Shown piece by piece: positions 674-63,859 of a stretch of DNA of 64,000 nucleotides. The notes under the pieces are model-generated. The model did no database searches. It saw only the letters and a program-made list of their open reading frames with translations, and was not told the origin of the DNA. Within the stretch, counting starts at the first letter, position 1; every line of letters starts with the position of its first letter. The position numbers and the translations under genes are program-made. The stretch covers positions 1-64,000 of the IMG/VR virus record IMGVR_UViG_3300045988_160394; one strand, 5' to 3'. This stretch comes from a virus.

Positions 674-787
674 ATGTTAGAAGATTATAATACTGAAAGA
701 AAAATAATATTTCATTTTAAACTATGGTGTGTATTATCAGCATTAATTATAATTTGTACAGCAATTTGTTTTGCAATATGGCTCTAG
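674..787 (+). CDS. small membrane protein (37 aa)
   Basis: ATG after TAGGAGGA; hydrophobic stretch LWCVLSALIIICTAICFAIW; below the ORF-track length cutoff. Confidence 0.4.
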   Translation: MLEDYNTERKIIFHFKLWCVLSALIIICTAICFAIWL

Positions 788-797
788 GAGGTTAAAT

Positions 798-1145
798 ATG
801 ACTACAGAACAGTTTATAGATTTAGTTAATAAAAAACATGTACAAGTTCTACTTAATTTACAAAAATTAAGCAGTATATATGAATTAGGTAATATTGAAT
901 TATATGAATTTAATGGTGAATCAAAAGATGTATGGTGTGATATAAAACCTATAAATAATTTTAGTTCATTATCATATAAAGTTTTATGTGTACCTACAGA
1001 AAAGAACTATAATAATAAAGACTTCTATACTATGGACTTATTAAGACTTATAGAAAAAGGAGTTATTAAATTAAGAGTAGTTTATGATAAAAAATATAAT
1101 GATATGATAGGAGAGAAATGTTATGAATATCAAGAAAGAGAATGA
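798..1145 (+). CDS. hypothetical protein
   Basis: ATG at 798 has TAGGAGG upstream, so it is preferred over the ORF-track TTG at 771; ends TGA. Confidence 0.55.
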   Translation: MTTEQFIDLVNKKHVQVLLNLQKLSSIYELGNIELYEFNGESKDVWCDIKPINNFSSLSYKVLCVPTEKNYNNKDFYTMDLLRLIEKGVIKLRVVYDKKYNDMIGEKCYEYQERE

Positions 1146-5026: not shown

Positions 5027-5392
5027 ATGAGAGATTTTAAAGAGGGGGATATTGTTAGATTTATTACTGATGAATATAATTTAACATGCGAAAGAAGAAA
5101 AACAGTAGCTGTAGTTAAAGAAGTCTTTTCAAAGAGTTGTATAATTGAAATAGTAGCAATGATGGATGAAAAACATTATAAATATTTAATAGAAGAAACT
5201 CCTGAACAAGGAGTATATCATGTTAATAAATCTCATATGAAATTATATCAAGGTGAATATGATGATATACTAACAGTTAAAGCATTGATAGAAGAAAATA
5301 CAGATTATTATGCTAGAATTTTAAAAATAAGAAGAGAGAAAAGGAAGAATAAACAGTATAATATAGATTCTTTTTTATTGGAGGGATTTTAA
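5027..5392 (+). CDS. hypothetical protein, paralog family B
   Basis: F(K)EGDIVRF...ERKTVA.V...LLEGF-stop, shared with 5392-5787 and 6050-6349. Confidence 0.6.
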   Translation: MRDFKEGDIVRFITDEYNLTCERRKTVAVVKEVFSKSCIIEIVAMMDEKHYKYLIEETPEQGVYHVNKSHMKLYQGEYDDILTVKALIEENTDYYARILKIRREKRKNKQYNIDSFLLEGF

Positions 5393-5787
5393 TGCCAAAG
5401 TACGATTTTAAAGAAGGAAACATTGTCAGATTTACAGATAATAGAGTATATAATTATACTAATGAAGAAAGAAAAACTGTAGCAAAAGTAGTATCTACAA
5501 AAGATTATTTAGACTACAATCCTTATTATGTACAACAAGATGATGAGCTTTTAGTTAAAATAATAGCAATGGATAGTATTGGCGGTTATGAAATGATTGT
5601 ATCAAGAGAAGAAAAAGGAATATTCCCTGTTAGAAAAAATTGCATATTACCTTATAAAGGAGAATATGATAATATCCCTGATGTGAAAATGTTATTATTA
5701 CTAAATGGATATGGAAAAGATACGATTAAAAAGCTAAATAAAAGAAAAAATCACGATATTAATAGTGTATTGCTGGAGGGTTTTTGA
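5392..5787 (+). CDS. hypothetical protein, paralog family B
   Basis: TAATG overlap with the upstream gene; ends LLEGF-TGA at the same position as the paralogs. Confidence 0.6.
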   Translation: MPKYDFKEGNIVRFTDNRVYNYTNEERKTVAKVVSTKDYLDYNPYYVQQDDELLVKIIAMDSIGGYEMIVSREEKGIFPVRKNCILPYKGEYDNIPDVKMLLLLNGYGKDTIKKLNKRKNHDINSVLLEGF

Positions 5788-8393: not shown

Positions 8394-8870
8394 ATGAAAG
8401 ATACATTAATAATAAGTGGATTTCCTGGCGTAGGTAAAAGCTATTTTAAAAACAATAATAGCAAATTAACTATATTAGATAGTGATAGTAGTAATTTCAG
8501 TTGATTAAAAGATAAAGATGGAAATAATACAAAAGAAAGAGATCCTGAATTCCCTAATAATTATATACAGCATATAAAAGATAATATGGGCAAAGTAGAT
8601 ATTATTTTTGTAAGTAGTCATGATGTTGTTAGACAAGCATTAAAAGATAATAATATGTTTTATTATTTAGTTTATCCTTGTAGATGTATAAAGGATGAAT
8701 ATTTACAAAGATATAAGGATAGAGGAAACAATAATTCTTTTATAGAATTTATAGATAAAAATTGAGAAGATTTTATAAAAGATATAGAAAAAGAAACGTT
8801 CCCTAAATTAATATTATTAAGAAGAGGACAACATATGAGAGATGCAGTCGCATTGTTAAGAGAAGTTTAA
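8394..8870 (+). CDS. P-loop NTPase / nucleotide-kinase-like protein with two in-frame TGA codons (8502-8504, 8763-8765)
   Basis: AAAGGTGG RBS; Walker A GFPGVGKS. The frame stays open for 158 codons if TGA is read (..SSNFS-TGA-LKDKDG.., ..FIDKN-TGA-EDFIKD..). A terminator follows the TAA. Confidence 0.55.
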
Positions 8871-14203: not shown

Positions 14204-15550
14204 ATGATTATAAAGTTACCTAAAGATGTTCAATTAATATTATCAGAATTAAATAATGCAGGATATAAAGCATATGTAGTTGGAGGTTGTATTAGAGATA
14301 GGCTGTTAGGATTAAGACCTAAAGACTGGGATGTAACAACTAATGCTACTCCTAAACAAATGATGAAAGTATTTAAAGGTTATAAAATAATACCTACAGG
14401 AATAAAACATGGTACTATAACTGTTATGATTAATAACGAAGGCTATGAAATAACAACTTTTAGAGCTGAATCGGAATATGATGAGCATAGAAGACCTGAG
14501 AAAGTTGTTTTTATAGATGATATTAAAGAAGATCTAGCTAGAAGAGATTTTACTATAAATGCAATAGCTTATCATCCAGAAGAAGGATTGATAGATCCAT
14601 TTAATGGAGCAGAAGATTTAGTATTAAAAAAGATAAAGACAGTAAGAAGATTTGGAGAAGAGATTAATGCTAGATTTATAGAGGACCCATTAAGAGCTTT
14701 TAGAGCATTTAGATTTGCTGCAAGATATGGGTTTGAAATATGTAGTGGTACATTAATAGCTATTGAATCTTTAGAAAAAGAAGATTTTAAATGTCTATCT
14801 AAAGAAAGAATTAGAGACGAAATTAGTAAAATAATATTACACAATCCTTTAATGTTAGATAGAATGAGTTTTAATATGTTAGACGTTGCATTCCCTGATT
14901 TAATATACAATCTATATGTAAAACAGAATCATCCTTATCATATATATAATGTATATGTTCATACCATAAAAGCAGTCATGGAATGTTATGATTCATTAGA
15001 ATTAAGATTAGCTGCATTACTTCATGATGTAGGAAAGAGAGATACTAAGACTGTAGATGATTCAGGGATTACTCATTTCTACGGACATCCTAAAAAATCT
15101 GCCGAGATGGCAGAAAAATATCTTAAAGAGTTAAGATATGATAATAAAACTGTAGAAAAGATTGTTACTGCAATAAAATATCATGATTGTGAATTAAATT
15201 CTAAAAAAGCTATTAAAAGAATAATTAGTAGAATAGGTATAGAAAATTTTGAATTATTATTAGATTTAAAGACTGTAGATATATTAGCTCAAAATCCTAA
15301 ATACAAAAAGGAAAGAATGTGTCAATTATGGGATGCAGTAGAGATATTAAATGAAATAAGAAGAAATAATGAATGTATAGGATTGAAAGACTTAGCTATT
15401 AAAGGTGGAGATTTAATAAAATTAGGTATGAAAGAAGGTCCTGAAATAGGTCAAATGTTATTTAAGCTATTAGATAAAGTATTAGAGAATCCTGAGCTTA
15501 ATAATAAAGATGATTTAATAAAGTTATATAATGAATTGAAAGATTTATAG
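14204..15550 (+). CDS. cca: CCA-adding tRNA nucleotidyltransferase with HD domain
   Basis: Pol-beta head GGCIRDRLLG..PKDWDVTT, RRDFTINA, and a C-terminal HD region (HP..H...LLHDVGK); 448 aa is typical. Confidence 0.9.
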   Translation: MIIKLPKDVQLILSELNNAGYKAYVVGGCIRDRLLGLRPKDWDVTTNATPKQMMKVFKGYKIIPTGIKHGTITVMINNEGYEITTFRAESEYDEHRRPEKVVFIDDIKEDLARRDFTINAIAYHPEEGLIDPFNGAEDLVLKKIKTVRRFGEEINARFIEDPLRAFRAFRFAARYGFEICSGTLIAIESLEKEDFKCLSKERIRDEISKIILHNPLMLDRMSFNMLDVAFPDLIYNLYVKQNHPYHIYNVYVHTIKAVMECYDSLELRLAALLHDVGKRDTKTVDDSGITHFYGHPKKSAEMAEKYLKELRYDNKTVEKIVTAIKYHDCELNSKKAIKRIISRIGIENFELLLDLKTVDILAQNPKYKKERMCQLWDAVEILNEIRRNNECIGLKDLAIKGGDLIKLGMKEGPEIGQMLFKLLDKVLENPELNNKDDLIKLYNELKDL

Positions 15551-23216: not shown

Positions 23217-23450
23217 ATGAAAATAGAAAGCTTTGAAAAATACGGATTAAGTAAAAAAGACTTTATTTTAGATGTATATCAATACAATAACTCTGAGAAT
23301 AAATTCAAAAGAGGAGTGCAAATATCCATACCTAAATATGGTATAAGTGTTAGGAGTGAATATAAGAAATCTCAAAAACAGAACCATGATAGATGTTTAA
23401 GAATGATAAAAATACTTCTTGAACATAATAGTAATCTTAATGAAATATGA
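23217..23450 (+). CDS. hypothetical protein (77 aa)
   Basis: AAGGAG RBS; ends TGA. Confidence 0.5.
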   Translation: MKIESFEKYGLSKKDFILDVYQYNNSENKFKRGVQISIPKYGISVRSEYKKSQKQNHDRCLRMIKILLEHNSNLNEI

Positions 23451-31384: not shown

Positions 31385-31768
31385 ATGGATGAAGTAGTAT
31401 ACGCTGAAAGAGATAATAATAAATATACTGAAAAATACACTGTATTTGGAGGAATGGATGTAGTATTAGTTGTTGATAAGAAAATAAAAGGAGAGATACA
31501 ATCTATAGCAGTAGATAGTATGAAAAAAGAAATAACAATTGGTATACTTTCTTTTGTAGGATCTTACGAAAAAGAATCTGTAGATTTTTATAAAAGCATT
31601 AAAGATGCTTTCATATTAGAAGCTTTTGCGAACGAATATGGAGATCATGCATGCTTTAGATATAATAAAGTAACATACAAAGGTTATAGAAAAAATCATG
31701 ATATTGATTCTACAAGTTTTATTGACCAATATATATATTCTTATGAAGATGAAGAATATATTGAATGA
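31385..31768 (+). CDS. hypothetical protein (127 aa)
   Basis: AAGGAGG RBS; ends TGA. Confidence 0.55.
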   Translation: MDEVVYAERDNNKYTEKYTVFGGMDVVLVVDKKIKGEIQSIAVDSMKKEITIGILSFVGSYEKESVDFYKSIKDAFILEAFANEYGDHACFRYNKVTYKGYRKNHDIDSTSFIDQYIYSYEDEEYIE

Positions 31769-41106: not shown

Positions 41107-41205
41107 ATGAAATATGTTAATTATATTTTAAACATAATAGTTATTTTTTTACTTATACTTATATTTGATAGGTTAGAATTTATTACTGAGGTGATTGTAA
41201 AATGA
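41107..41205 (+). CDS. possible small membrane protein (32 aa)
   Basis: Hydrophobic micro-ORF with an ATGA overlap onto the ligA start; ends TGA. Confidence 0.3.
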   Translation: MKYVNYILNIIVIFLLILIFDRLEFITEVIVK

Positions 41206-47465: not shown

Positions 47466-47726
47466 ATGAAAAAACACAGATATTGACTAAGAAGAAAAGG
47501 ACGTACATATAGTGTTATTTTTAATAACAAAGAGAGGACCGATATGATAATATTATTTATGCAATTTAGTTTTAAAGACTTTTGTTTTAAACCTAAAGCA
47601 TTATCTTTAGATAAAGATACAATAGCTATTAAATGGTTATTTATATATTTCGGTTTTATGCAAAAAGATAGTAGATATAAATGGCATCATGTTTTAGATA
47701 TACCAGATAAAGAAAGAAAGGATTGA
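47466..47726 (+). CDS. hypothetical protein with in-frame TGA at codon 7 (47484-47486)
   Basis: ATG 47466 sits 7 nt after GGGGGA; the ORF-track start 47544 has no RBS; same frame throughout if TGA is read. Confidence 0.4.
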
Positions 47727-47733
47727 TATTTAT

Positions 47734-48030
47734 ATGGAGAAAAGTAAAGTTATAATAGATAGAATAAAATTTATTAAATGTATAGATTGTGGTAAACCAA
47801 TAGCTCTTTATATAAAAGGAGAATACAACGATACAGGTACTTGTAATGAATGCTTTGCTCCTAATAGCTGTTTAAGAAACGGTATTGATGAGATGACAGA
47901 AACAGATTTATTTGATAAATATAATACAGAAGCTTTATATGATATTATGTTTTATAAAGAAAAGTTATTAAAACATTTATCATTAAAAGATTATTATACA
48001 TTATGGAAAATATGGAGGGATAATAAATGA
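47734..48030 (+). CDS. Cys-containing hypothetical protein (98 aa)
   Basis: AAAGGA RBS; CIDCG...CNEC; ATGA overlap with the next gene. Confidence 0.5.
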   Translation: MEKSKVIIDRIKFIKCIDCGKPIALYIKGEYNDTGTCNECFAPNSCLRNGIDEMTETDLFDKYNTEALYDIMFYKEKLLKHLSLKDYYTLWKIWRDNK

Positions 48031-50295: not shown

Positions 50296-51636
50296 ATGGC
50301 AACTAAATGTATAAAAATAGCTTTTGATTTTGCAAAAGATAATACTATAGATAAAAAAGATTTTTATAAAGAATTAAGAGATATAAATTATAAAACATGG
50401 TTGGCTTGTAATAGAGCTATTACTTACTTTTATACTAACGATATGCAGAATATGGTTCAAAAAGATATTGGTATTCCTAAACAAGATGATAAAGAACTGT
50501 TTGGAAAAAGTTTCGGAGCTTGGGTAGAAAACAGAATGAATGAGTTAATGGAAGGATGTTTATCTACTAATGTAGCTCAAACAAGACAATTTGTTGCTAA
50601 TAGATATGCTCAAGATAAAAAGAATGGGCTATTTAAAGGTCAAGTATCTTTAACTCAATTTAAAAAAGATATACCAATAATAGTTCATAATAAAGCTTAT
50701 AATATTATAGATACTGATAAAGGATTAGGTGTAGAAGTAAGTCTTTTTAATAAAGAAAAACAGAAAGAATTAAACGTTAAAAAGATTAAATTAGTATTTC
50801 CTAAATTAGATGGATCTTCTAAAGCTACGCTAATTAAAATAATGGATAAAACTTATAAACAAGGTTCAATACAAATAACTTATAATGAAAGAAAAAGAAA
50901 ATGGATGATGATTATAAGTTATACTTTTGAAGCTATTAAAGATGAAACATTAAATGAAGATATTACATTAGGAATAGATTTAGGTATAGTTAATGTGGCT
51001 ACTATGTCTTTATATGATTCTAAAAATAATAGTTTTAATAGCATAGCTTGGAAAGAAAGAATTATACCAGGGGATGAGCTTATACATTATAGACAAAAGA
51101 TAGAAGCTAGAAGAAAATCTTTATATATAGCTACTAAATGGTCTAGTGATAATGCTTCAGGCCATGGTTATAAAAGAAAAACAAAGACAGCTAATAAAAT
51201 AAGTGATAAGTATTCAAGATTTAGAGATACTTATAATCATAAGATATCTAGATATATAGTAGATTTAGCTATTAAACATAAAGCTAAGAATATACAAATG
51301 GAAGACTTAAGTGGTTTTTCAGATTATCAATCAGAAAGTTTATTAGCTAACTGGAGTTACTACGATCTTCAACAAAAGATAAAATATAAAGCCGAAGGAA
51401 AAGGTATTAATGTTATATTCATTAATCCACAATATACTTCTAAAAGATGTAGTAAATGTGGTAATATACACGAAGAGAATAGAGATTGTAAAAACAATCA
51501 GGCTAAATTCGAATGTATAGTATGCGGTCATAAAGAGAATGCAGATATAAATGCTAGTAAGAATATAGCTATACCACAAATTGATACTGTAATAAAAGAA
51601 TATATAAAAGATAAAAAAGAGGCTGCTATAAGTTAG
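50296..51636 (+). CDS. cas12f: miniature RNA-guided nuclease, Cas12f-type (TnpB-derived), 446 aa
   Basis: RuvC-I GIDLG (D228, nt 50977-50979), RuvC-II IQMEDL (E336, 51301-51303), zinc ribbon YTSKRCSKCG...CIVCG, RuvC-III NADINASKNIA (D417, 51544-51546). From memory, the C-terminal 220 aa run collinear with Firmicute Cas12f1 proteins (..FRDT.NH..SRYIVD.AIK.....IQMEDL...NW.YYDLQQKI.YKAE..GI.V..I.PQYTS.RCS.CG). Confidence 0.85.
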   Translation: MATKCIKIAFDFAKDNTIDKKDFYKELRDINYKTWLACNRAITYFYTNDMQNMVQKDIGIPKQDDKELFGKSFGAWVENRMNELMEGCLSTNVAQTRQFVANRYAQDKKNGLFKGQVSLTQFKKDIPIIVHNKAYNIIDTDKGLGVEVSLFNKEKQKELNVKKIKLVFPKLDGSSKATLIKIMDKTYKQGSIQITYNERKRKWMMIISYTFEAIKDETLNEDITLGIDLGIVNVATMSLYDSKNNSFNSIAWKERIIPGDELIHYRQKIEARRKSLYIATKWSSDNASGHGYKRKTKTANKISDKYSRFRDTYNHKISRYIVDLAIKHKAKNIQMEDLSGFSDYQSESLLANWSYYDLQQKIKYKAEGKGINVIFINPQYTSKRCSKCGNIHEENRDCKNNQAKFECIVCGHKENADINASKNIAIPQIDTVIKEYIKDKKEAAIS

Positions 51637-51717
51637 TAGTCTCTTTAGCTATATTTAAAGACCGTAGGGCAGGAAGAACTATATCTAAAAATGGAATGAT
51701 AGAATTGGTTATAAAAT

Positions 51718-51856
51718 AAAGGTTGATTTACCAGCCTAAAGATGAGATAGTGATTTCTATTAGAAATAATACTCTCATTAAACGCTCCAACTAGATTGGT
51801 AAAAGGCTAGTGCAAAACAATAATATTATTGGGCGTGTACTAGGATATAGCTTTTG
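51718..51856 (+). ncRNA. tracrRNA/omegaRNA-like structured RNA, copy 1
   Basis: Nested stems TTTACCA(51727-33)/TGGTAAA(51797-803) and ATGAGA(51742-47)/TCTCAT(51773-78); conserved in copy 2 with compensatory changes; ends in CTTTTG. Strand and ends are inferred. Confidence 0.55.
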
Positions 51857-52018
51857 TTAATATTTAATAAAATGATTTAAATATAAGGGTTTAATATTAA
51901 CATAAGATGTATTTAAATTTAAACAATCTATGTGTAGGACAGTTCCTGTACTAAGTTTAATATTAACATAGGATGTATTTAAATGTAGAATCAATATTAG
52001 CATAAGGTATATTTTAAT
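51855..52018 (+). CRISPR. mini CRISPR-like array 1
   Basis: Two 30-nt repeats, GTTTAATATTAACATAAGATGTATTTAAAT (51889-51918) and the same with one mismatch (51955-51984), separated by 36 nt. Degenerate repeat copies flank them at 51855-51882 and 51989-52018. Confidence 0.5.
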
Positions 52019-52081
52019 TTACTCCAAGTAGTTCATTATAAAAGCATATTTAATGACTTTCAATATAATTTATAAAAAGAT

Positions 52082-52246
52082 AAAGGGTGTTTTACCATCC
52101 TAAAAGTGAGAAAGTGATTTTGGAAACGGCTTAAATGATAAGCTTAAAATAAATTTAATACTCTCACTAAACGCTCCAATAAAGTTATTGGTAAAAAGCT
52201 AGTGCAAAATGATTAAATTCAGGCGTGTACTAGAATACATTTTTTA
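52082..52246 (+). ncRNA. tracrRNA/omegaRNA-like structured RNA, copy 2
   Basis: Homologous to copy 1 with a roughly 25-nt larger variable loop; stems TTTACCA(52091-97)/TGGTAAA(52189-95) and AGTGAGA(52105-11)/TCTCACT(52162-68); ends in a small hairpin plus TTTTTATT. Confidence 0.55.
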
Positions 52247-52277
52247 TTAAAGTAAACGGATTGGCTTAAATATACTG

Positions 52278-52338
52278 GTTGAACTTTAACAAGAATTGTA
52301 TTTAAAGATGTGCTCTTTTGGCACTAATGTATTTAAAG
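52278..52338 (+). CRISPR. degenerate CRISPR-like unit 2
   Basis: GTTGAACTTTAACAAGAATTGTATTTAAAG (about 22/30 identity to the array-1 repeat), then 20 nt (ATGTGCTCTTTTGGCACTAA), then an 11-nt repeat 3' fragment TGTATTTAAAG. Confidence 0.35.
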
Positions 52339-52382
52339 AAATATTAATTAAGATTTGATATTGATATATATGTTAAAATAAA

Positions 52383-52408
52383 TACTCTTCCCAATTGAGG
52401 GAAGAGTA
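52383..52408. other. GC-containing hairpin closing the non-coding locus
   Basis: TACTCTTCCC / GGGAAGAGTA stem with AATTGA loop; no T-run on the + strand (an A-run lies upstream), so its terminator role is unclear. Confidence 0.35.
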
Positions 52409-52426
52409 AAGTTAAAGGAGATTTTT

Positions 52427-52993
52427 ATGATATTGTATCATGTAAGTGAAAATTTGAACAATTATATTGATGTTTTCTATCCAAGAATACCATCTGAAGA
52501 TAGAATGTGTCTAGGAGAAAATATTTCCATAAAAAGAGTATGCGTATCATCAAATATAGCTGGAGCTTTTTCTGCTATGCCAAGAGAAGATGATATAGCT
52601 AATAAGAAGTTTAGAGTATATGAATTTGAATTAGACGAAAAAGATAAAGATTTATTAGATTATAAAACAATATATAATAGAAATTATGTTCAAGATAGTT
52701 TATGTACTAAAGAACATTGGATATTAAAAAATATTAAGCCATCAAGGCATTATGATATAATAGTAAAAAGTTATGATAATGAATTGATACCTGTTTTACG
52801 TAAAGATTTATGGAAAACTTATTTTAATACATACGCAGATGATCAAGATGCTTTCTTAGAGAAAAACGGTGGCTTTTTAATGTCAGCTTTTAAAAAAGTA
52901 TTTTATATAAAAGATAATGTCGAATTTATATCTGAAAATGATATATATGAATATTTAAATTATGATAGGAGTGATATTAATGGTTTATATTAA
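52427..52993 (+). CDS. hypothetical protein (188 aa)
   Basis: AAAGGAG RBS; no motif recognised. Confidence 0.55.
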   Translation: MILYHVSENLNNYIDVFYPRIPSEDRMCLGENISIKRVCVSSNIAGAFSAMPREDDIANKKFRVYEFELDEKDKDLLDYKTIYNRNYVQDSLCTKEHWILKNIKPSRHYDIIVKSYDNELIPVLRKDLWKTYFNTYADDQDAFLEKNGGFLMSAFKKVFYIKDNVEFISENDIYEYLNYDRSDINGLY

Positions 52994-57289: not shown

Positions 57290-57577
57290 GTGGGTAGAAT
57301 TATTTATTGCAGACAACCTAAATATCCTAAACCGCCTATTCCAGGTAGTAGGAAAGATACTTATAATGAAATAGTTAAAAAAGAACATTATGGAGTAGAA
57401 GTTTGAGAAAATGTAATTACAGACAAAGTAAGAAAAACTAAATGCTTATGTTTTAATTGCAGAAAACTAGGTAAATGTGATATAGCAAATCATTTATATC
57501 AATTTTGCAAAAAGAATAATATCGCACTAATGATGACAAGATGTAAGGAATTTGATTTTGAAGGAGAGTGTAATTAA
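57290..57577 (+). CDS. Cys-rich protein with in-frame TGA (57404-57406)
   Basis: GTG start 7 nt after AAGGAGGAG; the frame is open for 95 codons if TGA is read (..HYGVEV-TGA-ENVITDK..); CLCFNC..C..C motif downstream of the TGA. Confidence 0.45.
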
Positions 57578-58432: not shown

Positions 58433-59299
58433 ATGCTATTAAAATGTAATCAACATAGAGATGATTTAGCGAAAAATCTAAAGAGTTATTGTAAAATTGA
58501 TGGCATAAGCATGTTTATTCAAGTAGGAGATAATCCTGCTAGTACCACTTATATTAATCAAAAAAAGAAAGCATGTGATAAAGCAGGAATACAATATGAT
58601 CATGTTGTATTAAATAAAGATATAACAGAAGAACAATTAATAGCTAAAATAAAAGAATATAACGATTGTACAGATGTTATAGGAATAATGGTTCAACTTC
58701 CTTTACCAGTTCATATTAATGAAGAAGCTATTATTAATGCTATCAAACCAGAAAAAGACATAGATGGATTCACTCATGTTAACAAAGGTAAACTAATGGT
58801 TGCAGATGAATCTGTTGTAGTTCCTTGTACTCCATACGGAATTGACGTTTTACTTGATACAATAGGCTTTGGTTATGAAGGAAAAAATGTTGTAGTGGTA
58901 GGTAGAAGTAATATAGTAGGAAAACCTATGACTCAGCTATTAATAAACAGAGGAGCTACTGTTACTTGTTGTAATAGCAAAACTTCTAAAGAAACATTAA
59001 CAAACTTAATATTAAATTCAGATTTATTTATATCTGCTATAGACAAGCCTAACTATTTTGATATACAATATTTTGGAAAGGATAATTTAGCCAAGTTATC
59101 AAATGTAATAGCTATAGATGTAGGAATATTTAGAATAGAAGATAAACTCCATGGGAATATAAACAAGGAATTATATGATTATTTTAAAGCTATTACGCCT
59201 GTTCCAGGTGGAGTAGGACCTATGACTATAGTAGGTGTATTATCTAATATTACAAAATGTGCTTCATTACAAAATAAAATAGAATTTATAGAGAAATAA
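58433..59299 (+). CDS. folD: bifunctional 5,10-methylene-THF dehydrogenase / methenyl-THF cyclohydrolase
   Basis: VGDNPAS..Y...K.KAC...GI, GIMVQLPLP, KDIDGF, PCTP.G, VVVVGRSNIVGKPM, ISA..KP, TPVPGGVGPMT: the full set of FolD motifs. Confidence 0.9.
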   Translation: MLLKCNQHRDDLAKNLKSYCKIDGISMFIQVGDNPASTTYINQKKKACDKAGIQYDHVVLNKDITEEQLIAKIKEYNDCTDVIGIMVQLPLPVHINEEAIINAIKPEKDIDGFTHVNKGKLMVADESVVVPCTPYGIDVLLDTIGFGYEGKNVVVVGRSNIVGKPMTQLLINRGATVTCCNSKTSKETLTNLILNSDLFISAIDKPNYFDIQYFGKDNLAKLSNVIAIDVGIFRIEDKLHGNINKELYDYFKAITPVPGGVGPMTIVGVLSNITKCASLQNKIEFIEK

Positions 59300-59508
59300 T
59301 GATAGACATTATAACTAATACTAGAGAAGCACAGGCTAATTATTTTGCATTATGTTTGTTAATGCCTAAGAAAGAATTTAAAGATGAAATGTATAAAGCT
59401 TTTAATAAAAAAGATTATACTTATGATATGCAATTAGTAGCTAATCATTTTAATGTTCCATTAGAAGCTGCTATTGTACGAGCTAGAGATTTAAGGATTA
59501 TAAAATAG
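59299..59508 (+). CDS. ImmA/IrrE-like C-terminal fragment (no HExxH)
   Basis: EAQANYFALCLLMPKKEF resembles the motif downstream of the ImmA/IrrE metalloprotease active site; only 69 aa and the catalytic motif is absent. Confidence 0.45.
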   Translation: MIDIITNTREAQANYFALCLLMPKKEFKDEMYKAFNKKDYTYDMQLVANHFNVPLEAAIVRARDLRIIK

Positions 59509-59526: not shown

Positions 59527-60258
59527 ATGGATAAGTTTCAGATTAAGATATTAAACCCAGAAGAAGTAAAGACATTATTTAAACGTTGAGGGACGTTCGC
59601 ATGTAAATGTTATGACACTCCTGCTAAATATGCAGAAAGAGTTGGTAAATCATGCTTACAATCAGGACACTTTTCAGGATCAAGAAGTATATATATAGAA
59701 ATAGATGTTAGTAATGTACCTAGAGCTCTTGTAGATCAAATAATAAGAAGAGAACAAGGATGCGTTAAAAACGTTGAATCTGGTAGATATGTAGATTTCT
59801 CAGATTTTGATTATTATACTTCACCATTAATAGCTAATGATCCAATAGCTAAAGAGATATATGATGAACACATGAAAGCTACTAGAGAAGTTTATTCTTT
59901 ATTAGTTAAAAGATTAAATGAAAAAGGGATAACTGGTGAAAGAGCCTTTGAAGCAGCTAGAGGAGTTGCTCCTATGAACTATAGAACAGGTATGGTTCTA
60001 GGATTAACATTAGAAGCTTTAATAGGCTTATGTCATGAAAGATTATGTAGTAGAACTCAAGAACATTCTAGACATTTAATCAAGATGATAAGAGATGAGG
60101 TTCTAAAGCTTATACCTGAGTTAGAGCCATATTTAGTAGTGAAATGTGATTATCTACAATGGTGTCCAGAAGGAAGTAAATGTTGTGGTAGAAAACCAAC
60201 TAGAAAAGAATTCTTAGAATTTATTGATTCTAATAAAGTTAAAGGGAGTGTTAAGTAA
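59527..60258 (+). CDS. thyX: flavin-dependent thymidylate synthase ThyX with in-frame TGA (59587-59589)
   Basis: ATG after AGGAGG; the frame is continuous with ORF-track 59872-60258 if TGA is read; ..SGHFSGSRS.., ThyX-motif-like RREQGCVKNVESGRY, ..ARGVAPMNYRT.. helical region. Confidence 0.7.
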
Positions 60259-62888
60259 TGGCAAAGAATATAGTATTTAATTCAGATGCAAGAGAAAAGA
60301 TAAGACAAGGTGTCAATGTATTAGGAGATGCTGTTAGAGCAACTATGGGACCTAAAGGTAGAAATGCTATCTTAGAAAGAACACCTGGTTCTCCATTAAT
60401 AACTAACGATGGAGTTACTATAGCTAAAGAAATAGAATTAATAGACAATATAGAAAATATGGGAGCTCAAATAGTAAAAGAAGCAGCTATTAAGACTAAT
60501 GATGAGGCAGGAGATGGGCCACAACCTTTATATTCTAAAATATTAACACCTAATGGTTGGACTACTATGGGTGAAATAAAAAAAGGTGATGTTATATGTG
60601 GTACAAATAATACTCATCAAACAGTATTAGAAGTTTATCCTAAAGGGAAAAAAGAATTGGTTATAATTACATTCTCTAATGGCAAACAAGTTCATTGCTG
60701 TCAAGATCATTTATGGACTATAAATACAAGCTATGGAAAAAGAAAAACCATGACAACAAGAGAAATGATAAACAAAGGCGTATACAAACTTAATAGCCAA
60801 GGTGATAAAAGATATAATTTCTATACACCTTCTAACACAGTAGAGTTTCAAGAAAAAGAATTACCGATACATCCATACCTTTTAGGTGCTCTATTAGGAG
60901 ATGGCTCATTAACTGGGACAGGGAATATAGAATTAAGCTTAGGATATAATAAAGAGCACATAATAGAAAAAATATATCCGATATTACCTGACAATATACA
61001 AATATCAATACAGGATTGTTTAGACAAGAATTGTTATAGAGTCAAATTTTCAAAAATAGATAAAACTAATCCTATTTCTATGGAAAGTTTACTTAATGAA
61101 TTAAATCTATTAGGAACTAATAGTAAAAATAAATTTATACCTGAAATTTATTTATATAATTCAGTTGAAAATAGAACACAATTGTTAAATGGTTTAATAG
61201 ATACAGATGGATATAACAATAATAGAGGATTGTTTGAATTTTCTACTGTTAGCGATAAACTTAATGAATCCTTCACAGAATTAGTTAATAGCTTAGGAAT
61301 TCAAACATCATATACTTTACACAAAAGAGATAATGACTTATTATCTTATTCTTTCAATCCTATTCATAGACATACTCAATTAAAAGGTTATAAATATGGA
61401 ATAAAAATAGTAGATATTGAAGTTGTTAATAAACTAGAAGAAATGAAATGTATAAAAGTATCAAATCAAGATAATTTATATATAACAGATGGATATATAG
61501 TAACACACAACACTACTACAGCTACAGTTTTAGCACAAGCAATCATAAATGAAGGTTATAATGCTCTTTCTACAACTGAAGATGTTTCAGAAGAAGAAAA
61601 GAATCAATCTATATACAAAGGTGCCAATCCTGTTTTATTAAAGAAAGGTATAGAAATAGCTACTAAAATAGCAATAGATGAATTAAAAGCTATAGCTAAG
61701 CCTATAGAAACAGATGAAGAAATAAAACAAATAGCAACTATATCTTCTGCTAGTGATGATATAGGAGAATTAATATCTCAAGCTATTAAAAGAGTAGGTA
61801 AAGACGGTATAATTACTACTACTGAATCACATACTATAGAAACTACTTTAGAAGTTAAAGAAGGTTTTGAATTTGACAGAGGTTTTTATTCACCTTACTT
61901 TGCTGATGATCAAGAAAAAATAGAATCTGTTTTTTATAATCCATTAATACTTGTAAGTGATCAAAAGATGAGAACTCAACAAGAAATAGTACCTTTATTA
62001 GAACAAGTGTTAAAAGTTCAAAGACCTATAGTGTTTATAGTTGATGAAATAGAACAAATCGTATTCTCTTCTTTATTAAGAAATAAAATGAATGGGAATA
62101 TGGATGTAGCAGTAATAAAAGCACCTGGATTTGGGGCAAAAAGAAAAGAGCTATTACAAGATATAGCTATTTTAACAGGAGCAACTTTTATATCTGAAGA
62201 ATACGCTTTAACTATGTCAGAAGCTAGAATAAACTTATTAGGTTCATGCGAGTCTATAAAGATAACTAAAAATAATACTATTATATTTAATGGTTCTGGA
62301 GATAAAGAAGAAATAAATAAAAGAGCAGAACACATTAAGAATAGTATTAATGCTGATAATATATCAGAATACGATAAAGAAAAACTAGAAGAAAGATTAG
62401 CTAAAATAACAGGTGGTATAGCTACTATAAAAATAGGAGCTGCTACAGAGCCTGAATTAAAAGAGAAAAAGTTAAGAATAGAAGATGCTATTAATGCCAC
62501 TAAAGCAGCTATAGAAGAAGGAATAGTTGCAGGTGGTGGAACAGCTTTATTTAATCTTTCACCAGTAATATTAGAAAAGACTAAAAACTTAGTAGGAGAT
62601 GTATATCAAGGAGCATTATGTGTAGCATTAGCTGTTAATTCTCCAATAATACAAATAGCTATGAATGCAGGTGTAAATGCTACTAAGGTTATGGAAAATG
62701 TTTTAAAGACAGCTAAAGAAAAAAGCAATCCTAATATAGGATATGATGCTTATAATGATGCTTATGTTGATATGTTAGAAGTAGGAATAATAGATCCTGT
62801 AAAAGTTACTAGAAATGCATTACAAAATGCAGCTTCAGTAGCTGCTATACTGTTAACAACAGATGTAACTATAAGCAACTTTCAATAA
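60258..62888 (+). CDS. groEL: chaperonin GroEL (Cpn60) precursor interrupted by an intein
   Basis: Exteins (87 + 458 aa) carry GroEL signatures: AR....GV..L.DAV..T.GPKGRN, ITNDGVTIAKEIEL, AGDG|TTTATVLA, GGG.ALF, IIDP.KVTR.ALQNAASVA. TAATG overlap with thyX. Confidence 0.95.
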   Translation: MAKNIVFNSDAREKIRQGVNVLGDAVRATMGPKGRNAILERTPGSPLITNDGVTIAKEIELIDNIENMGAQIVKEAAIKTNDEAGDGPQPLYSKILTPNGWTTMGEIKKGDVICGTNNTHQTVLEVYPKGKKELVIITFSNGKQVHCCQDHLWTINTSYGKRKTMTTREMINKGVYKLNSQGDKRYNFYTPSNTVEFQEKELPIHPYLLGALLGDGSLTGTGNIELSLGYNKEHIIEKIYPILPDNIQISIQDCLDKNCYRVKFSKIDKTNPISMESLLNELNLLGTNSKNKFIPEIYLYNSVENRTQLLNGLIDTDGYNNNRGLFEFSTVSDKLNESFTELVNSLGIQTSYTLHKRDNDLLSYSFNPIHRHTQLKGYKYGIKIVDIEVVNKLEEMKCIKVSNQDNLYITDGYIVTHNTTTATVLAQAIINEGYNALSTTEDVSEEEKNQSIYKGANPVLLKKGIEIATKIAIDELKAIAKPIETDEEIKQIATISSASDDIGELISQAIKRVGKDGIITTTESHTIETTLEVKEGFEFDRGFYSPYFADDQEKIESVFYNPLILVSDQKMRTQQEIVPLLEQVLKVQRPIVFIVDEIEQIVFSSLLRNKMNGNMDVAVIKAPGFGAKRKELLQDIAILTGATFISEEYALTMSEARINLLGSCESIKITKNNTIIFNGSGDKEEINKRAEHIKNSINADNISEYDKEKLEERLAKITGGIATIKIGAATEPELKEKKLRIEDAINATKAAIEEGIVAGGGTALFNLSPVILEKTKNLVGDVYQGALCVALAVNSPIIQIAMNAGVNATKVMENVLKTAKEKSNPNIGYDAYNDAYVDMLEVGIIDPVKVTRNALQNAASVAAILLTTDVTISNFQ
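60519..61511 (+). mobile_element. intein (331 aa) with LAGLIDADG homing-endonuclease domain; class-3-like W/C/T signature
   Basis: Inserted between G87 and T of the DG|TTT loop. Block A-like PQPLYSKILTPNGW; block B ..QDHLW (W, nt 60714-60716); LAGLIDADG motifs LLGALLGDGSL and LNGLIDTDGY; block F MKCIKV (C, nt 61449-61451); block G GYIVTHN followed by +1 Thr. Confidence 0.85.
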
Positions 62889-62965: not shown

Positions 62966-63859
62966 ATGTGAGAAAGAAAGCTAACGAATAAACAGAAGAA
63001 AAAAGAAAAACAATTGAAGAAACAAAAAGAAAAAGCTGAAAGAGAACAATTTATTAATAGCTGTATGAAAGAGATTAATGATGAATTAGACAGAAGTTAT
63101 ATTGTAATTGACGATATGCTAGAAAAAATAAGTAAAGATTTTGTTGATTCTGCTATTAAAATAGAAGAATATAAACAGTCACTAATTCATATTGCATACA
63201 GAGATGATTTGGATAAAGAAAGTTATTCAGATTATAAAGAAGTTAAAGATATTATTACTAATATAGAAGAGATTAGAAAAAATATGAATTCTAAATATAT
63301 AGATATGTTTTCTGATAGTACAGAGAATTCTATACTCCAATTAGCAGAAGAATCTATAAATAAAATTGCTGATATTATTAAAAGCATTCAAGCAGATATA
63401 AAAGGCCAAAAGAATGACTTTTTAATACTTTCTATATTATTGGATAGGTCTAAGAGAATATTAGAAGAATATAACACATACATAGTAGAATCTGTCTTAG
63501 AATCTAATCCTTATATTGATGCGTATATAGAAACAGAAGAATCTTATTATAATTTCTTATTAGAAATAGTAGGAGATAAAGAAGATAATCCTGAAGATAT
63601 TACACAAGAAGAAATAAGAAAATACAATGATAGATTAAGAGTAGAATATTCTGATTTATCAAGATTTCTTACTTTAAAGGGATATGTATGCGTTAGACAA
63701 AATAGTACGACTCATGCAATATGGAGAAACGAAGAATTAGGAATATCTGTTCCATTACCTAATAAATCTGGTACAGTTCCACAAGGAACAGTTTCTAAGC
63801 TATTAAGAATAATAAATAGTAATAGATATGAATTAGCAGAATTTATAATGGAGGAATAG
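62966..63859 (+). CDS. coiled-coil protein with C-terminal HicA-like domain; TGA as second codon if the start is 62966
   Basis: ATG 62966 is 6 nt after AAGGAGGTG and in frame with ORF-track TTG 63014 through TGA 62969-62971. C-terminal FLTLKGYVCVRQNSTTHAIWRNEELGISVPLPNKSGTVPQGTVSKLLRII fits the HicA/YcfA pattern. Confidence 0.5.

What the first reader, a model, noticed from the sequence alone, without database searches (positions are those of the whole stretch)
8394..8870. In-frame TGA codons in several otherwise intact genes: candidate TGA read-through or Trp recoding
The P-loop kinase-like gene 8394-8870 has a good RBS, a Walker A motif and a terminator, but contains two in-frame TGAs (8502-8504, 8763-8765). 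Both sit in contexts where Trp is plausible (SSNFS-x-LKDKDG; FIDKN-x-EDFIKD). The same situation recurs in thyX (59587-59589), in the Cys-rich ORF 57290-57577 (57404-57406), in ORF 47466-47726 (47484-47486) and possibly as codon 2 of ORF 62966-63859. In every case the zero frame stays open across the TGA, and the RBS-bearing start lies upstream of it. By my reading only seven ORFs end in TGA: 798-1145, 5392-5787, 23217-23450, 31385-31768, 41107-41205, 47466-47726 and 47734-48030. All others use TAA or TAG, and TGG remains the normal Trp codon. That pattern does not fit a fully code-4 genome. It fits partial or stage-specific suppression, as described for stop-codon-recoded phages that carry suppressor tRNAs, or leaky UGA decoding by tRNA-Trp in low-GC Gram-positives. 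No tRNA gene is visible in this window.
Basis: partly seen in the sequence, partly recalled or inferred. Interest (0 to 1): 0.75.

Follow-up and report, generated by a model that had tools for sequence, protein, structure and literature searches.

The report
Phage opal-suppressor tRNA reads TGA as tryptophan
A 263-kb gut phage keeps a few intact genes that contain in-frame TGA "stop" codons at conserved tryptophan positions, and just past the window it carries its own unusual tRNA that can read TGA, so this is a sparse form of the stop-codon recoding already known in gut phages.

Summary
The in-frame TGAs at 8502, 8763, 57404 and 59587 each align with a conserved Trp in homologues. The TGA at 62969 is probably a sense codon, and the one at 47484 is unresolved.

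They are not assembly errors. The same TGAs occur in independent assemblies from other samples.

They are not pseudogenes. A diverged relative (dS 0.35) keeps both kinase TGAs, and pN/pS is 0.11-0.19 in all three segments of the gene. No gene in the window is broken by TAA, TAG or a frameshift.

The decoder lies 2.1 kb beyond the window end on the same contig. It is a 119-nt tRNA with anticodon UCA, a tRNA-Trp-like anticodon arm, discriminator G73 and a conserved 46-nt three-helix variable arm. ARAGORN misses it at default settings. Rfam's tRNA model finds it at 47.9 bits.

In this phage the tRNA has no encoded CCA and is followed at the next base by an HDV-like ("theta"-type) ribozyme. The window encodes a CCA-adding enzyme at 14204-15550.

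TGG remains the usual Trp codon (153 TGG against 4-6 TGA), and six or seven genes still end in TGA. This is therefore sparse, probably partial or timed, TGA-to-Trp suppression. It is a variant of known phage recoding, not a new principle.

The parts
8394..8870 (+). P-loop (AAA_18-like) kinase-like gene, 158 codons, read through two TGAs
   Evidence: It is one open frame apart from the two TGAs. Pfam AAA_18 matches at E 3e-4, below the cut-off. Phage homologues at 45-57% identity cover the full length. The orthologue in relative L014 keeps both TGAs, with dS 0.35 and pN/pS of 0.11, 0.19 and 0.12 in the three segments.
8502..8504 (+). Sense TGA (Trp) in the kinase-like gene
   Evidence: The column is W in 7 of 8 homologues (motif DSDSSxFSW) and a gap in the eighth. 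The TGA is also present in L014, L020 and L021.
8763..8765 (+). Sense TGA (Trp) in the kinase-like gene
   Evidence: The column is W in 7 of 8 homologues (motif NW[DE]xFI) and F in the eighth. The TGA is also present in L014, L020 and L021.
57290..57577 (+). Small Cys-rich ORF with a sense TGA at 57404-57406
   Evidence: The orthologue in relative L016 (8032-8298) reads GATVWENTFTD where the window reads GVEV*ENVITD. The next in-frame start is 42 codons after the TGA.
59527..60258 (+). thyX (flavin-dependent thymidylate synthase) with a sense TGA at 59587-59589 (codon 21)
   Evidence: Pfam Thy1 matches at 2e-23. W21 is nearly invariant across 32 homologues. The codon is TGA in the window and in two independent assemblies, and TGG in four relatives. 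No in-frame start occurs for 95 codons after the TGA. pN/pS against L016 is 0.22.
62966..63859 (+). HicA-domain protein gene; probable sense TGA at 62969-62971 (codon 2)
   Evidence: The RBS AAGGAGGTG lies 8 nt upstream of the ATG at 62966. Orthologues of 296 and 289 aa have N-termini of the same length, with K or N rather than W at codon 2. The alternative start, TTG at 63014, has no RBS. I rate this probable, not proven.
47466..47726 (+). ORF with an in-frame TGA at 47484-47486; status unresolved
   Evidence: An RBS-like AAGGGGGA precedes the ATG at 47466, but a second RBS-like site precedes the ATG at 47544. The homology search returned only near-identical copies of the same gene. Variant L144 keeps the TGA.
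14204..15550 (+). tRNA nucleotidyltransferase (CCA-adding enzyme); presumed to complete the suppressor tRNA, which lacks an encoded CCA
   Evidence: PHROG 2244 matches at E 1.2e-71. Kienbeck et al. 2024 (PMC10879173) report this gene about 250-fold enriched in phages with tRNA-associated theta ribozymes.
5392..5787 (+). Gene that ends in TGA (5785-5787). The next gene is in the same frame, with its own RBS and an ATG two codons later.
   Evidence: It shows that TGA still serves as a terminator in this genome.
771..1145 (+). Gene ending in TGA
   Evidence: The next TAA or TAG is 15 codons downstream.
23217..23450 (+). Gene ending in TGA
31385..31768 (+). Gene ending in TGA
47734..48030 (+). Gene ending in TGA

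Best explanation
The window is part of a circular phage genome of about 263 kb with 25% G+C (ENA ERZ1756024 NODE_19). In this genome a small number of Trp codons have drifted from TGG to TGA.

These TGAs are translated as tryptophan by a phage-encoded opal-suppressor tRNA. The tRNA lies 2.1 kb beyond the window end, at L009 15872-15990, which corresponds to window position 66129-66247. It has:
- anticodon loop CUUCAAA, giving anticodon UCA;
- the GGUCU-N-CAAAACC anticodon arm typical of tRNA-Trp;
- discriminator G73;
- a normal 7/4/5/5 cloverleaf;
- a conserved 46-nt, three-helix variable arm.

In this phage the tRNA gene has no encoded CCA. An HDV-like (theta-type) ribozyme starts at the very next base. 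The ribozyme would cut exactly after G73, and the phage CCA-adding enzyme (14204-15550) would then finish the 3' end.

TGA still terminates six or seven genes in the window, and TGG remains about 97% of Trp codons. Suppression is therefore probably incomplete or confined to part of the infection cycle, so the TGA-bearing genes (kinase-like, ThyX, a Cys-rich protein and a sigma-like factor) would be made only once the suppressor is present.

Shown: the TGAs are real, conserved and under purifying selection; they sit at Trp positions; the tRNA has anticodon UCA and a covariation-supported fold; the ribozyme fold is supported.

Inferred: charging with Trp, ribozyme cleavage followed by CCA addition, and any timing or regulatory role.
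For: - Trp positions: both kinase TGAs align with W in 7 of 8 homologues. The thyX TGA aligns with a nearly invariant W21 in 32 homologues. The Cys-rich ORF TGA aligns with W in its orthologue. Two TGAs in the sigma-like gene align with invariant W33 and W72 in 16 homologues.
- Derived from TGG: relatives carry TGG at the thyX site and at the sigma sites (searches report 'translates_to_query yes').
- Not an error: the thyX TGA occurs in three assemblies from different samples. The kinase TGAs occur in L014, L020 and L021.
- Selection: kinase dN/dS against L014 is 0.13 at dS 0.35, with no indels. pN/pS is 0.11-0.19 in each segment, including downstream of both TGAs.
- Only TGA interrupts genes. 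The chance that four random nonsense hits are all TGA and all come from TGG is about 1e-6 or less.
- tRNA: Rfam's tRNA model scores 47.9 bits here and 42.6-56.4 bits in four relatives, against a gathering score of 29. RNAalifold gives a cloverleaf plus variable arm, with 17 of 35 pairs compensatory. The window and L009 are identical over 13,743 nt, so they are the same genome.
- Ribozyme: Rfam HDV-F-prausnitzii hits of 31-36 bits fall below the gathering score of 44. On five copies the double-pseudoknot fold has 94.5% of cells paired and 12 of 22 pairs compensatory, against 33-56% paired in the slid controls.
- CCA pattern: lineages with the ribozyme lack an encoded CCA. Lineages without it encode CCA.
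- CCA-adding enzyme in the window.
- Precedent: Borges et al. preprint 10.1101/2021.08.26.457843 and Kienbeck et al. PMC10879173.
Against: - No experiment shows that the tRNA is expressed, processed, charged with Trp or used.
- A long variable arm is an identity element for SerRS, and the anticodon arm plus the following bases also resemble tRNA-Sec. The tRNA features alone therefore do not fix the amino acid.
- One lineage-specific TGA in L014's sigma-like gene aligns with S, A, Y or W in relatives. One in the window phage's sigma-like gene aligns with a variable column. Codon 2 of 62966 aligns with K or N.
- The TGAs are followed by G or T, which are not known leaky contexts. That fits a dedicated tRNA but gives no independent support.
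- TGA still ends genes that have no nearby back-up stop, so efficient suppression would add 7-63 residues to them.
- Relatives L017 and L018 carry the same kind of tRNA but show no in-frame TGA in the roughly 20 kb seen.
- About 180 kb of the genome, including the structural and lysis genes and any RF1 or TrpRS gene, could not be examined.
Confidence: 0.8

Rival explanations
1. Host-only leaky decoding. The TGAs are read at low efficiency by the host's normal tRNA-Trp(CCA), as described for Bacillus subtilis (from my own knowledge), and the phage tRNA plays no part.
For: The TGAs sit at Trp positions. TGA is rare and still acts as a stop. No RF1 or TrpRS gene was seen in the roughly 83 kb examined.
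Against: A structurally conserved tRNA with anticodon UCA is present in this genome and in four related lineages. The kinase has two TGAs, so its yield would be the square of an already low read-through rate, yet all three segments are under purifying selection. The 3' contexts (TGA-G, TGA-T) are not the weak-termination contexts known from E. coli (my own knowledge).
Confidence: 0.07
2. TGA is decoded, but as an amino acid other than Trp. Candidates are Ser (the long variable arm recruits SerRS, as it does for tRNA-Sec), Sec, or Gly (code 25).
For: The tRNA has a long variable arm and G73. Its anticodon arm plus the next bases match many bacterial selC genes. One L014-specific TGA aligns with Ser in sister lineages.
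Against: Six of six TGAs in conserved columns are at W, and relatives have TGG there, not TCA, TGT or GGA. The window has 299 TCA against 153 TGG codons, so a Ser meaning predicts TGAs at Ser columns. The fold is 7/5 with a 4-bp D stem and a 10-nt D loop, not the 8/5 with a 6-bp D stem of bacterial tRNA-Sec. No Cys or Sec columns are involved.
Confidence: 0.06
3. The host itself reads TGA as Trp (a code-4 bacterium), and the phage simply follows its host.
For: The genome has very low G+C (25%). Some public gene calls on these contigs used code 4.
Against: TGG outnumbers sense TGA 153 to 4-6, the opposite of known code-4 genomes (from my own knowledge). Six or seven genes end in TGA, one followed directly by an RBS and start codon. 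The phage's CRISPR-type repeat matches exactly only arrays in two Clostridium genomes among 185,579 species. Related lineages carry tRNA-Trp(CCA).
Confidence: 0.04
4. The interrupted genes are pseudogenes, or the TGAs are sequencing or assembly errors.
For: TGG to TGA is a single G-to-A transition, which is favoured in an AT-rich genome.
Against: The same TGAs occur in independent assemblies. Both kinase TGAs are kept across dS 0.35 with dN/dS 0.13 and no indels. No gene carries a TAA or TAG nonsense codon or a frameshift. The observed pattern has a probability of about 1e-6 under random nonsense mutation.
Confidence: 0.02

Closest known systems
TGA-recoded (code-4-type) gut phages with suppressor tRNAs, e.g. 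the Jade and Agate clades (Borges et al., preprint 10.1101/2021.08.26.457843)
   Same: It is a large, low-G+C gut phage. In-frame TGA aligns with Trp. The phage encodes a tRNA that reads TGA. TGA and TAG are depleted as stop codons. Close relatives carry TGG at the same sites, and some relatives have the tRNA but no visible recoding.
   Different: - Use is far sparser: about 4% of genes in this 64-kb region have an in-frame TGA, against 26-71% of genes in the described clades.
- The coding gain under code 4 is only about 4%, below the 5-10% threshold used to call recoding.
- The TGA-bearing genes seen here are metabolic or regulatory (kinase-like, ThyX, sigma-like), not structural or lysis genes.
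- TGA is still used as a stop.
- No RF1 or TrpRS gene was seen in the 83 kb examined.
- The suppressor has a 46-nt variable arm and escapes ARAGORN at default settings.
tRNA-associated HDV-like 'theta' ribozymes of gut phages (Kienbeck et al. 2024, PMC10879173)
   Same: A minimal HDV-like fold starts at the base after the tRNA's discriminator. The tRNA lacks an encoded CCA. The phage encodes a tRNA nucleotidyltransferase. A second copy sits in the tRNA cluster.
   Different: In that study 99.7% of ribozyme-associated suppressors were amber (UAG), about 90% of predicted hosts were Bacteroidota, and no code-4 genome was found among phages with ribozyme-linked suppressors. Here the partner is an opal suppressor in a phage with Clostridium-type CRISPR repeats. 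The Rfam score is below the family's gathering score, and self-cleavage was not tested.
Mycoplasma/Spiroplasma tRNA-Trp(UCA) and genetic code 4
   Same: The anticodon arm GGUCUUCAAAACC and the G73 discriminator are as in tRNA-Trp(UCA) (from my own knowledge). TGA means Trp.
   Different: TGA is a minor Trp codon here and is still a stop. The tRNA has a long structured variable arm. The system is carried by a virus.
Bacterial tRNA-Sec (selC)
   Same: It has anticodon UCA, a long variable arm and G73. Many selC genes contain the same 20-nt stretch of the anticodon arm plus the next bases.
   Different: The fold is 7/5 rather than 8/5, with a 4-bp D stem and a 10-nt loop. The variable arm is twice as long and has three helices. 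The TGAs are at Trp positions, not Cys positions.

Membership tests
Stop-codon-recoded phage, TGA to Trp, with suppressor tRNA | In-frame TGA in conserved genes aligns with Trp | tested here: met
   Six of six sites in conserved columns align with W.
Stop-codon-recoded phage, TGA to Trp, with suppressor tRNA | The phage genome encodes a tRNA with anticodon UCA | tested here: met
   L009 15872-15990, on the same contig as the window. Rfam tRNA scores 47.9 bits, and the fold has covariation support.
Stop-codon-recoded phage, TGA to Trp, with suppressor tRNA | Coding density rises by at least 5-10% under the alternative code (the operational criterion of Borges and of Kienbeck) | tested here: not met
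   In the window, plus-strand ORFs of at least 100 codons cover 51,786 nt under code 11 and 53,934 nt under code 4, a gain of about 4%. The whole genome was not available.
Stop-codon-recoded phage, TGA to Trp, with suppressor tRNA | Recoded stops are concentrated in structural and lysis genes | not testable with these tools
   The window holds early, metabolic-type genes. The rest of the 263-kb contig could not be fetched.
Stop-codon-recoded phage, TGA to Trp, with suppressor tRNA | The host uses the standard code | tested here: inconclusive
   The phage-borne CRISPR repeat matches only two Clostridium genomes. There is no direct link to a host.
tRNA-associated theta (minimal HDV-like) ribozyme | Nested double-pseudoknot fold (P1, P1.1, P2, P3, P4) with a conserved C in J4/2 | tested here: met
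   On five copies, 94.5% of cells are paired and 12 of 22 pairs are compensatory. P1.1 CC/GG and the C of G[G/A]CUAA are invariant. The Rfam score of 31-36 bits is below the gathering score of 44.
tRNA-associated theta (minimal HDV-like) ribozyme | Cleavage site within 5 nt of a tRNA end, and a tRNA without an encoded CCA | tested here: met
   The ribozyme's G1 is the base after G73. No CCA is encoded in the window phage or in L016, while ribozyme-free lineages encode CCA.
tRNA-associated theta (minimal HDV-like) ribozyme | Self-cleavage activity | not testable with these tools
   This needs an in vitro transcription and cleavage assay.
Genuine code-4 genome | TGA is a major Trp codon and never a terminator | tested here: not met
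   There are 153 TGG against 4-6 sense TGA. Six or seven genes end in TGA, including 5392-5787, which is followed by an RBS and ATG.
Selenocysteine decoding (tRNA-Sec plus SECIS) | 8/5 acceptor/T arms, a 6-bp D stem, and UGA at Cys/Sec positions | tested here: not met
   The fold is 7/5 with a 4-bp D stem. All informative TGAs are at W. SECIS elements were not searched for.
Pseudogene | Relaxed selection, and mixed kinds of disruption | tested here: not met
   pN/pS is 0.11-0.19 downstream of the TGAs. Only TGA disrupts genes.

The most novel reading that the evidence does not exclude
This phage clade may capture the earliest stage of a codon reassignment. A structurally new suppressor tRNA (UCA, with a 46-nt three-helix variable arm, matured by a ribozyme) is already fixed, while only a handful of TGG codons have drifted to TGA, different ones in different lineages. 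Those TGAs sit in regulatory and nucleotide-metabolism genes (a sigma-like factor, ThyX, a kinase-like protein), so the suppressor would act as a translational timer for a middle or late programme. The extra arm could be a handle for a phage factor, or a shield against host nucleases that target tRNAs.
Probability: 0.3. Interest if true: 0.75.

Novelty: new variant of a known kind. Interest (0 to 1): 0.55.

Why it matters
- Recoding can be missed. A phage can use a reassigned stop codon so sparingly that the usual test, a coding-density gain under code 4, would class it as standard code, and its suppressor tRNA escapes a standard tRNA finder. Surveys may therefore undercount recoding and suppressor tRNAs.
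- Annotation. Public gene calls for this clade are inconsistent. thyX is truncated to 128 aa on some contigs and called under code 4 on others.
- Evolution. Sister lineages with TGG or TGA at the same Trp positions, all carrying the tRNA, form a natural series for studying how reassignment begins.
- The ribozyme-linked opal suppressor extends the theta-ribozyme association from amber to opal suppression and to a likely Clostridium phage.

Tried and rejected
- Megablast of window 1-25000 against GenBank phages found no match.
- ARAGORN at default settings found no suppressor in the window or in L009. At low thresholds with introns allowed it called the locus tRNA-Leu(caa) with an intron, among many false positives.
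- I first suspected the odd 95-nt tRNA-like element at L009 17084-17178, but it contains no UCA anticodon.
- The 10 kb upstream of the window holds no tRNA.
- A scan of IMG/VR for the anticodon arm gave 0 hits. The kinase has only distant relatives there.
- The homology search for ORF 47466 returned only near-identical copies of the same gene, and variant L144 is too similar to help.
- I could not walk along the rest of the contig, because look-ups accept only window proteins or search hits. The structural and lysis modules, and any RF1 or TrpRS gene, remain unseen.
- Rejected explanations: a code-4 host, selenocysteine, code 25 (Gly), pseudogenes and assembly error. The reasons are given under the rival explanations.

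Full report
**What is in the sequence.** The window has 25% G+C and strong G-over-C skew, and essentially all genes lie on the + strand. The frame 8394-8870 is open apart from TGA at 8502 and 8763. I scanned all + strand frames using only TAA and TAG as stops. Among 115 called genes of at least 45 aa, 80 end in TAA, 28 in TAG and 7 in TGA, and one of those seven is the internal kinase TGA. There are 153 in-frame TGG codons. Neither ARAGORN nor Rfam finds a tRNA in the window.

**Which residue aligns with TGA.**
- Kinase-like protein: it has full-length homologues at 45-57% identity in AR9/PBS1, Clostridium phage c-st, SP-10, staphylococcal and Vibrio jumbo phages and others. Aligned with eight of them, both TGA columns are W in seven (motifs DSDSSxFSW and NW[DE]xFI).
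- ThyX: it matches Pfam Thy1 only from residue 34 onward, and the next in-frame start is 95 codons after the TGA. A code-11 product would therefore lack the N-terminal 115 residues, including most of the Thy1 domain. In 32 homologues W21 is nearly invariant.
- Cys-rich ORF: its orthologue in a related phage has W at the TGA position.
- Sigma-like gene: just outside the window a sigma-70-region-4-like gene carries three TGAs. Two of them fall on invariant W33 and W72 in 16 homologues.
- Weaker sites: codon 2 of 62966 aligns with K or N in orthologues. It is supported only by a strong RBS 8 nt upstream of the ATG and by matching N-terminal lengths. 47484 is unresolved. 5785 looks like a true stop, because an RBS and an ATG follow two codons later.

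**Not an artefact and not decay.**
- The window is identical to ENA contig ERZ1756024 NODE_19 (263,172 bp). That contig is circularly permuted relative to the window, and coordinates computed from the two fetched loci differ by 55 nt, which fits a terminal overlap of the assembly.
- The thyX TGA is also present in two short contigs from other samples. There the public gene call used code 4, which is why a full-length "W" protein exists in the protein collection. Relatives at 75-86% amino-acid identity have TGG at that codon.
- Both kinase TGAs are present in L020, L021 and the more diverged L014.
- Against L014 the kinase shows dS 0.35 and dN/dS 0.13 with no indels. pN/pS is 0.11, 0.19 and 0.12 before, between and after the two TGAs.
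- Every same-frame junction made by TAA or TAG between two real genes has a start 2-10 codons downstream, so these are simply neighbouring genes. The four exceptions have downstream segments of only 30-32 codons. The TGA junctions do not show this pattern.
- From the window's codon usage, TGA would account for 27-28% of random nonsense events, and only 5-16% of those would arise from TGG.
- Random pseudogenisation is therefore excluded. The pattern is what synonymous drift from TGG to TGA predicts if TGA means Trp.

**The decoder.**
- ARAGORN finds tRNA-Gln, Ile, Met and Asn 3 kb past the window end but nothing with anticodon UCA.
- Rfam's tRNA model finds a fifth tRNA at L009 15872-15990 (47.9 bits against a gathering score of 29). 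That corresponds to window position 66129-66247.
- Its anticodon arm is CUGGU-CUUCAAA-ACCAG, which gives anticodon UCA. It has discriminator G73 and a G1-U72 pair. A 46-nt insertion sits in the variable region.
- The same tRNA occurs in four other lineages of this phage clade at 42.6-56.4 bits.
- RNAalifold on the five sequences returns a standard cloverleaf plus a three-helix variable arm, with 17 of 35 pairs showing compensatory change.
- The anticodon arm matches that of tRNA-Trp (from my own knowledge of E. coli, B. subtilis and Mycoplasma sequences).
- The long arm and the match to many selC genes raise Ser or Sec as alternatives. The fold, however, is 7/5 with a 4-bp D stem, and all informative TGAs sit at TGG-derived Trp positions, so Trp is by far the best reading.

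**Maturation.**
- In the window phage and in L016 the tRNA gene has no CCA. It is followed at the next base by an RNA that matches Rfam's HDV-F-prausnitzii ribozyme below its gathering score (31-35 bits against 44). Further copies lie in the tRNA clusters.
- On five copies the HDV-type double pseudoknot is 94.5% paired, with 12 of 22 pairs compensatory, against 33-56% paired in the slid controls. P1.1 and the putative catalytic C are invariant.
- Lineages without the ribozyme after this tRNA encode CCA.
- The window encodes a CCA-adding enzyme at 14204-15550.
- This arrangement matches the tRNA-associated theta ribozymes of Kienbeck et al. (PMC10879173). That study found almost only amber suppressors and mostly Bacteroidota hosts.

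**Context and limits.**
- The window holds non-structural genes: CCA-adding enzyme, nucleotidyltransferases, NAD-dependent DNA ligase, FolD, NUDIX, ThyX and an intein-containing GroEL.
- The described TGA-recoded clades have in-frame stops in 26-71% of genes, mostly structural and lysis genes. Here about 4% of genes in 64 kb carry an in-frame TGA, the code-4 coding gain is about 4%, and TGA still ends genes.
- I could not reach the other roughly 180 kb. Whether the late genes are heavily recoded, and whether RF1 or TrpRS are present, remains open.
- A Clostridium host is only suggested. The phage-borne CRISPR-type repeat matches exactly only two Clostridium genomes.
- More distant relatives have TGG at the sigma positions, carry tRNA-Trp(CCA), and show no in-frame TGA in the stretches fetched.

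**Verdict.** The mechanism is a phage opal-suppressor tRNA that reads TGA as Trp. It is a variant of known phage recoding, notable for three things: how sparingly TGA is used, the atypical tRNA, and the ribozyme-linked opal suppressor.

Noticed in passing
window 51640-52430 (and the gene at 50296-51636): This is a non-coding gap with Clostridium-type CRISPR repeats. Rfam CRISPR-DR3 matches at 51889-51918, 51955-51984 and 52278-52307, with degenerate copies nearby. They form one or two mini-arrays directly downstream of a TnpB-like gene (OrfB_IS605 / Cas12f1-like_TNB). The exact repeat occurs only in Clostridium thermopalmarium and Clostridium sp. 19966 among 185,579 species genomes.
   Followed up: partly
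window 51715-51862 and 52078-52252; L009 17262-17408: A motif of about 130-170 nt (AAGGNTGNTT..CCAGCC..GTGAGA...ACTCTCAnTAAACGC...) is repeated twice, each copy just upstream of a mini-array, and once inside the tRNA cluster. It has apparent compensatory changes in a hairpin and no Rfam match. It could be a TnpB omega-RNA or right-end remnant, or a new structured RNA.
   Followed up: partly
window 60258-62888: The GroEL-type chaperonin gene (876 aa) is interrupted by an intein with a homing-endonuclease domain (Hom_end / LAGLIDADG). Relatives have intein-free versions of 534-543 aa.
   Followed up: no
L009 17084-17178 (window-equivalent 67341-67435): A 95-nt tRNA-like element lies between tRNA-Ile and tRNA-Met. 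It has good acceptor, D and T arms but a long extended anticodon-arm hairpin. ARAGORN calls it tRNA-Ile(tat) with an 18-nt insert, and only at a lowered threshold. L016 has tRNA-Tyr at the same place.
   Followed up: partly
L016 16756-16884: Rfam 'drum RNA' (RF02958) matches above its gathering score (51.5 against 43 bits), between two tRNA-Ser genes of a related phage.
   Followed up: no
L009 19916-20620 and 19124-19915 (window-equivalent about 69.4-70.9 kb): A sigma-like gene carries three in-frame TGAs, two of them shared by three lineages. The neighbouring acidic protein gene carries two, one at an equivalent place in L016. TGA use therefore continues outside the window and includes a likely transcription regulator.
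   Followed up: partly
window 59527-60258 and its homologues (alignment A2): This ThyX family has R-[RKH]-E where I recall the canonical ThyX motif as RHR, and a Cys-rich C-terminal tail (CPEG-x-CCG). It may be a divergent subfamily.
   Followed up: no
public gene calls on L012, L013 and L014 versus L009 and L016: The protein collection holds both code-4 and code-11 gene calls for this phage clade. thyX is 243 aa on some contigs and 128 aa on others, and the kinase is 170 aa on one and three fragments on another. Database annotation of the clade is therefore inconsistent.
   Followed up: yes
window 59299-59508: A 69-aa ORF matches only the C-terminal part of the IrrE/M78 peptidase domain. It lies between folD and thyX, is conserved in L016, and is absent in L014 and L017.
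   Followed up: no
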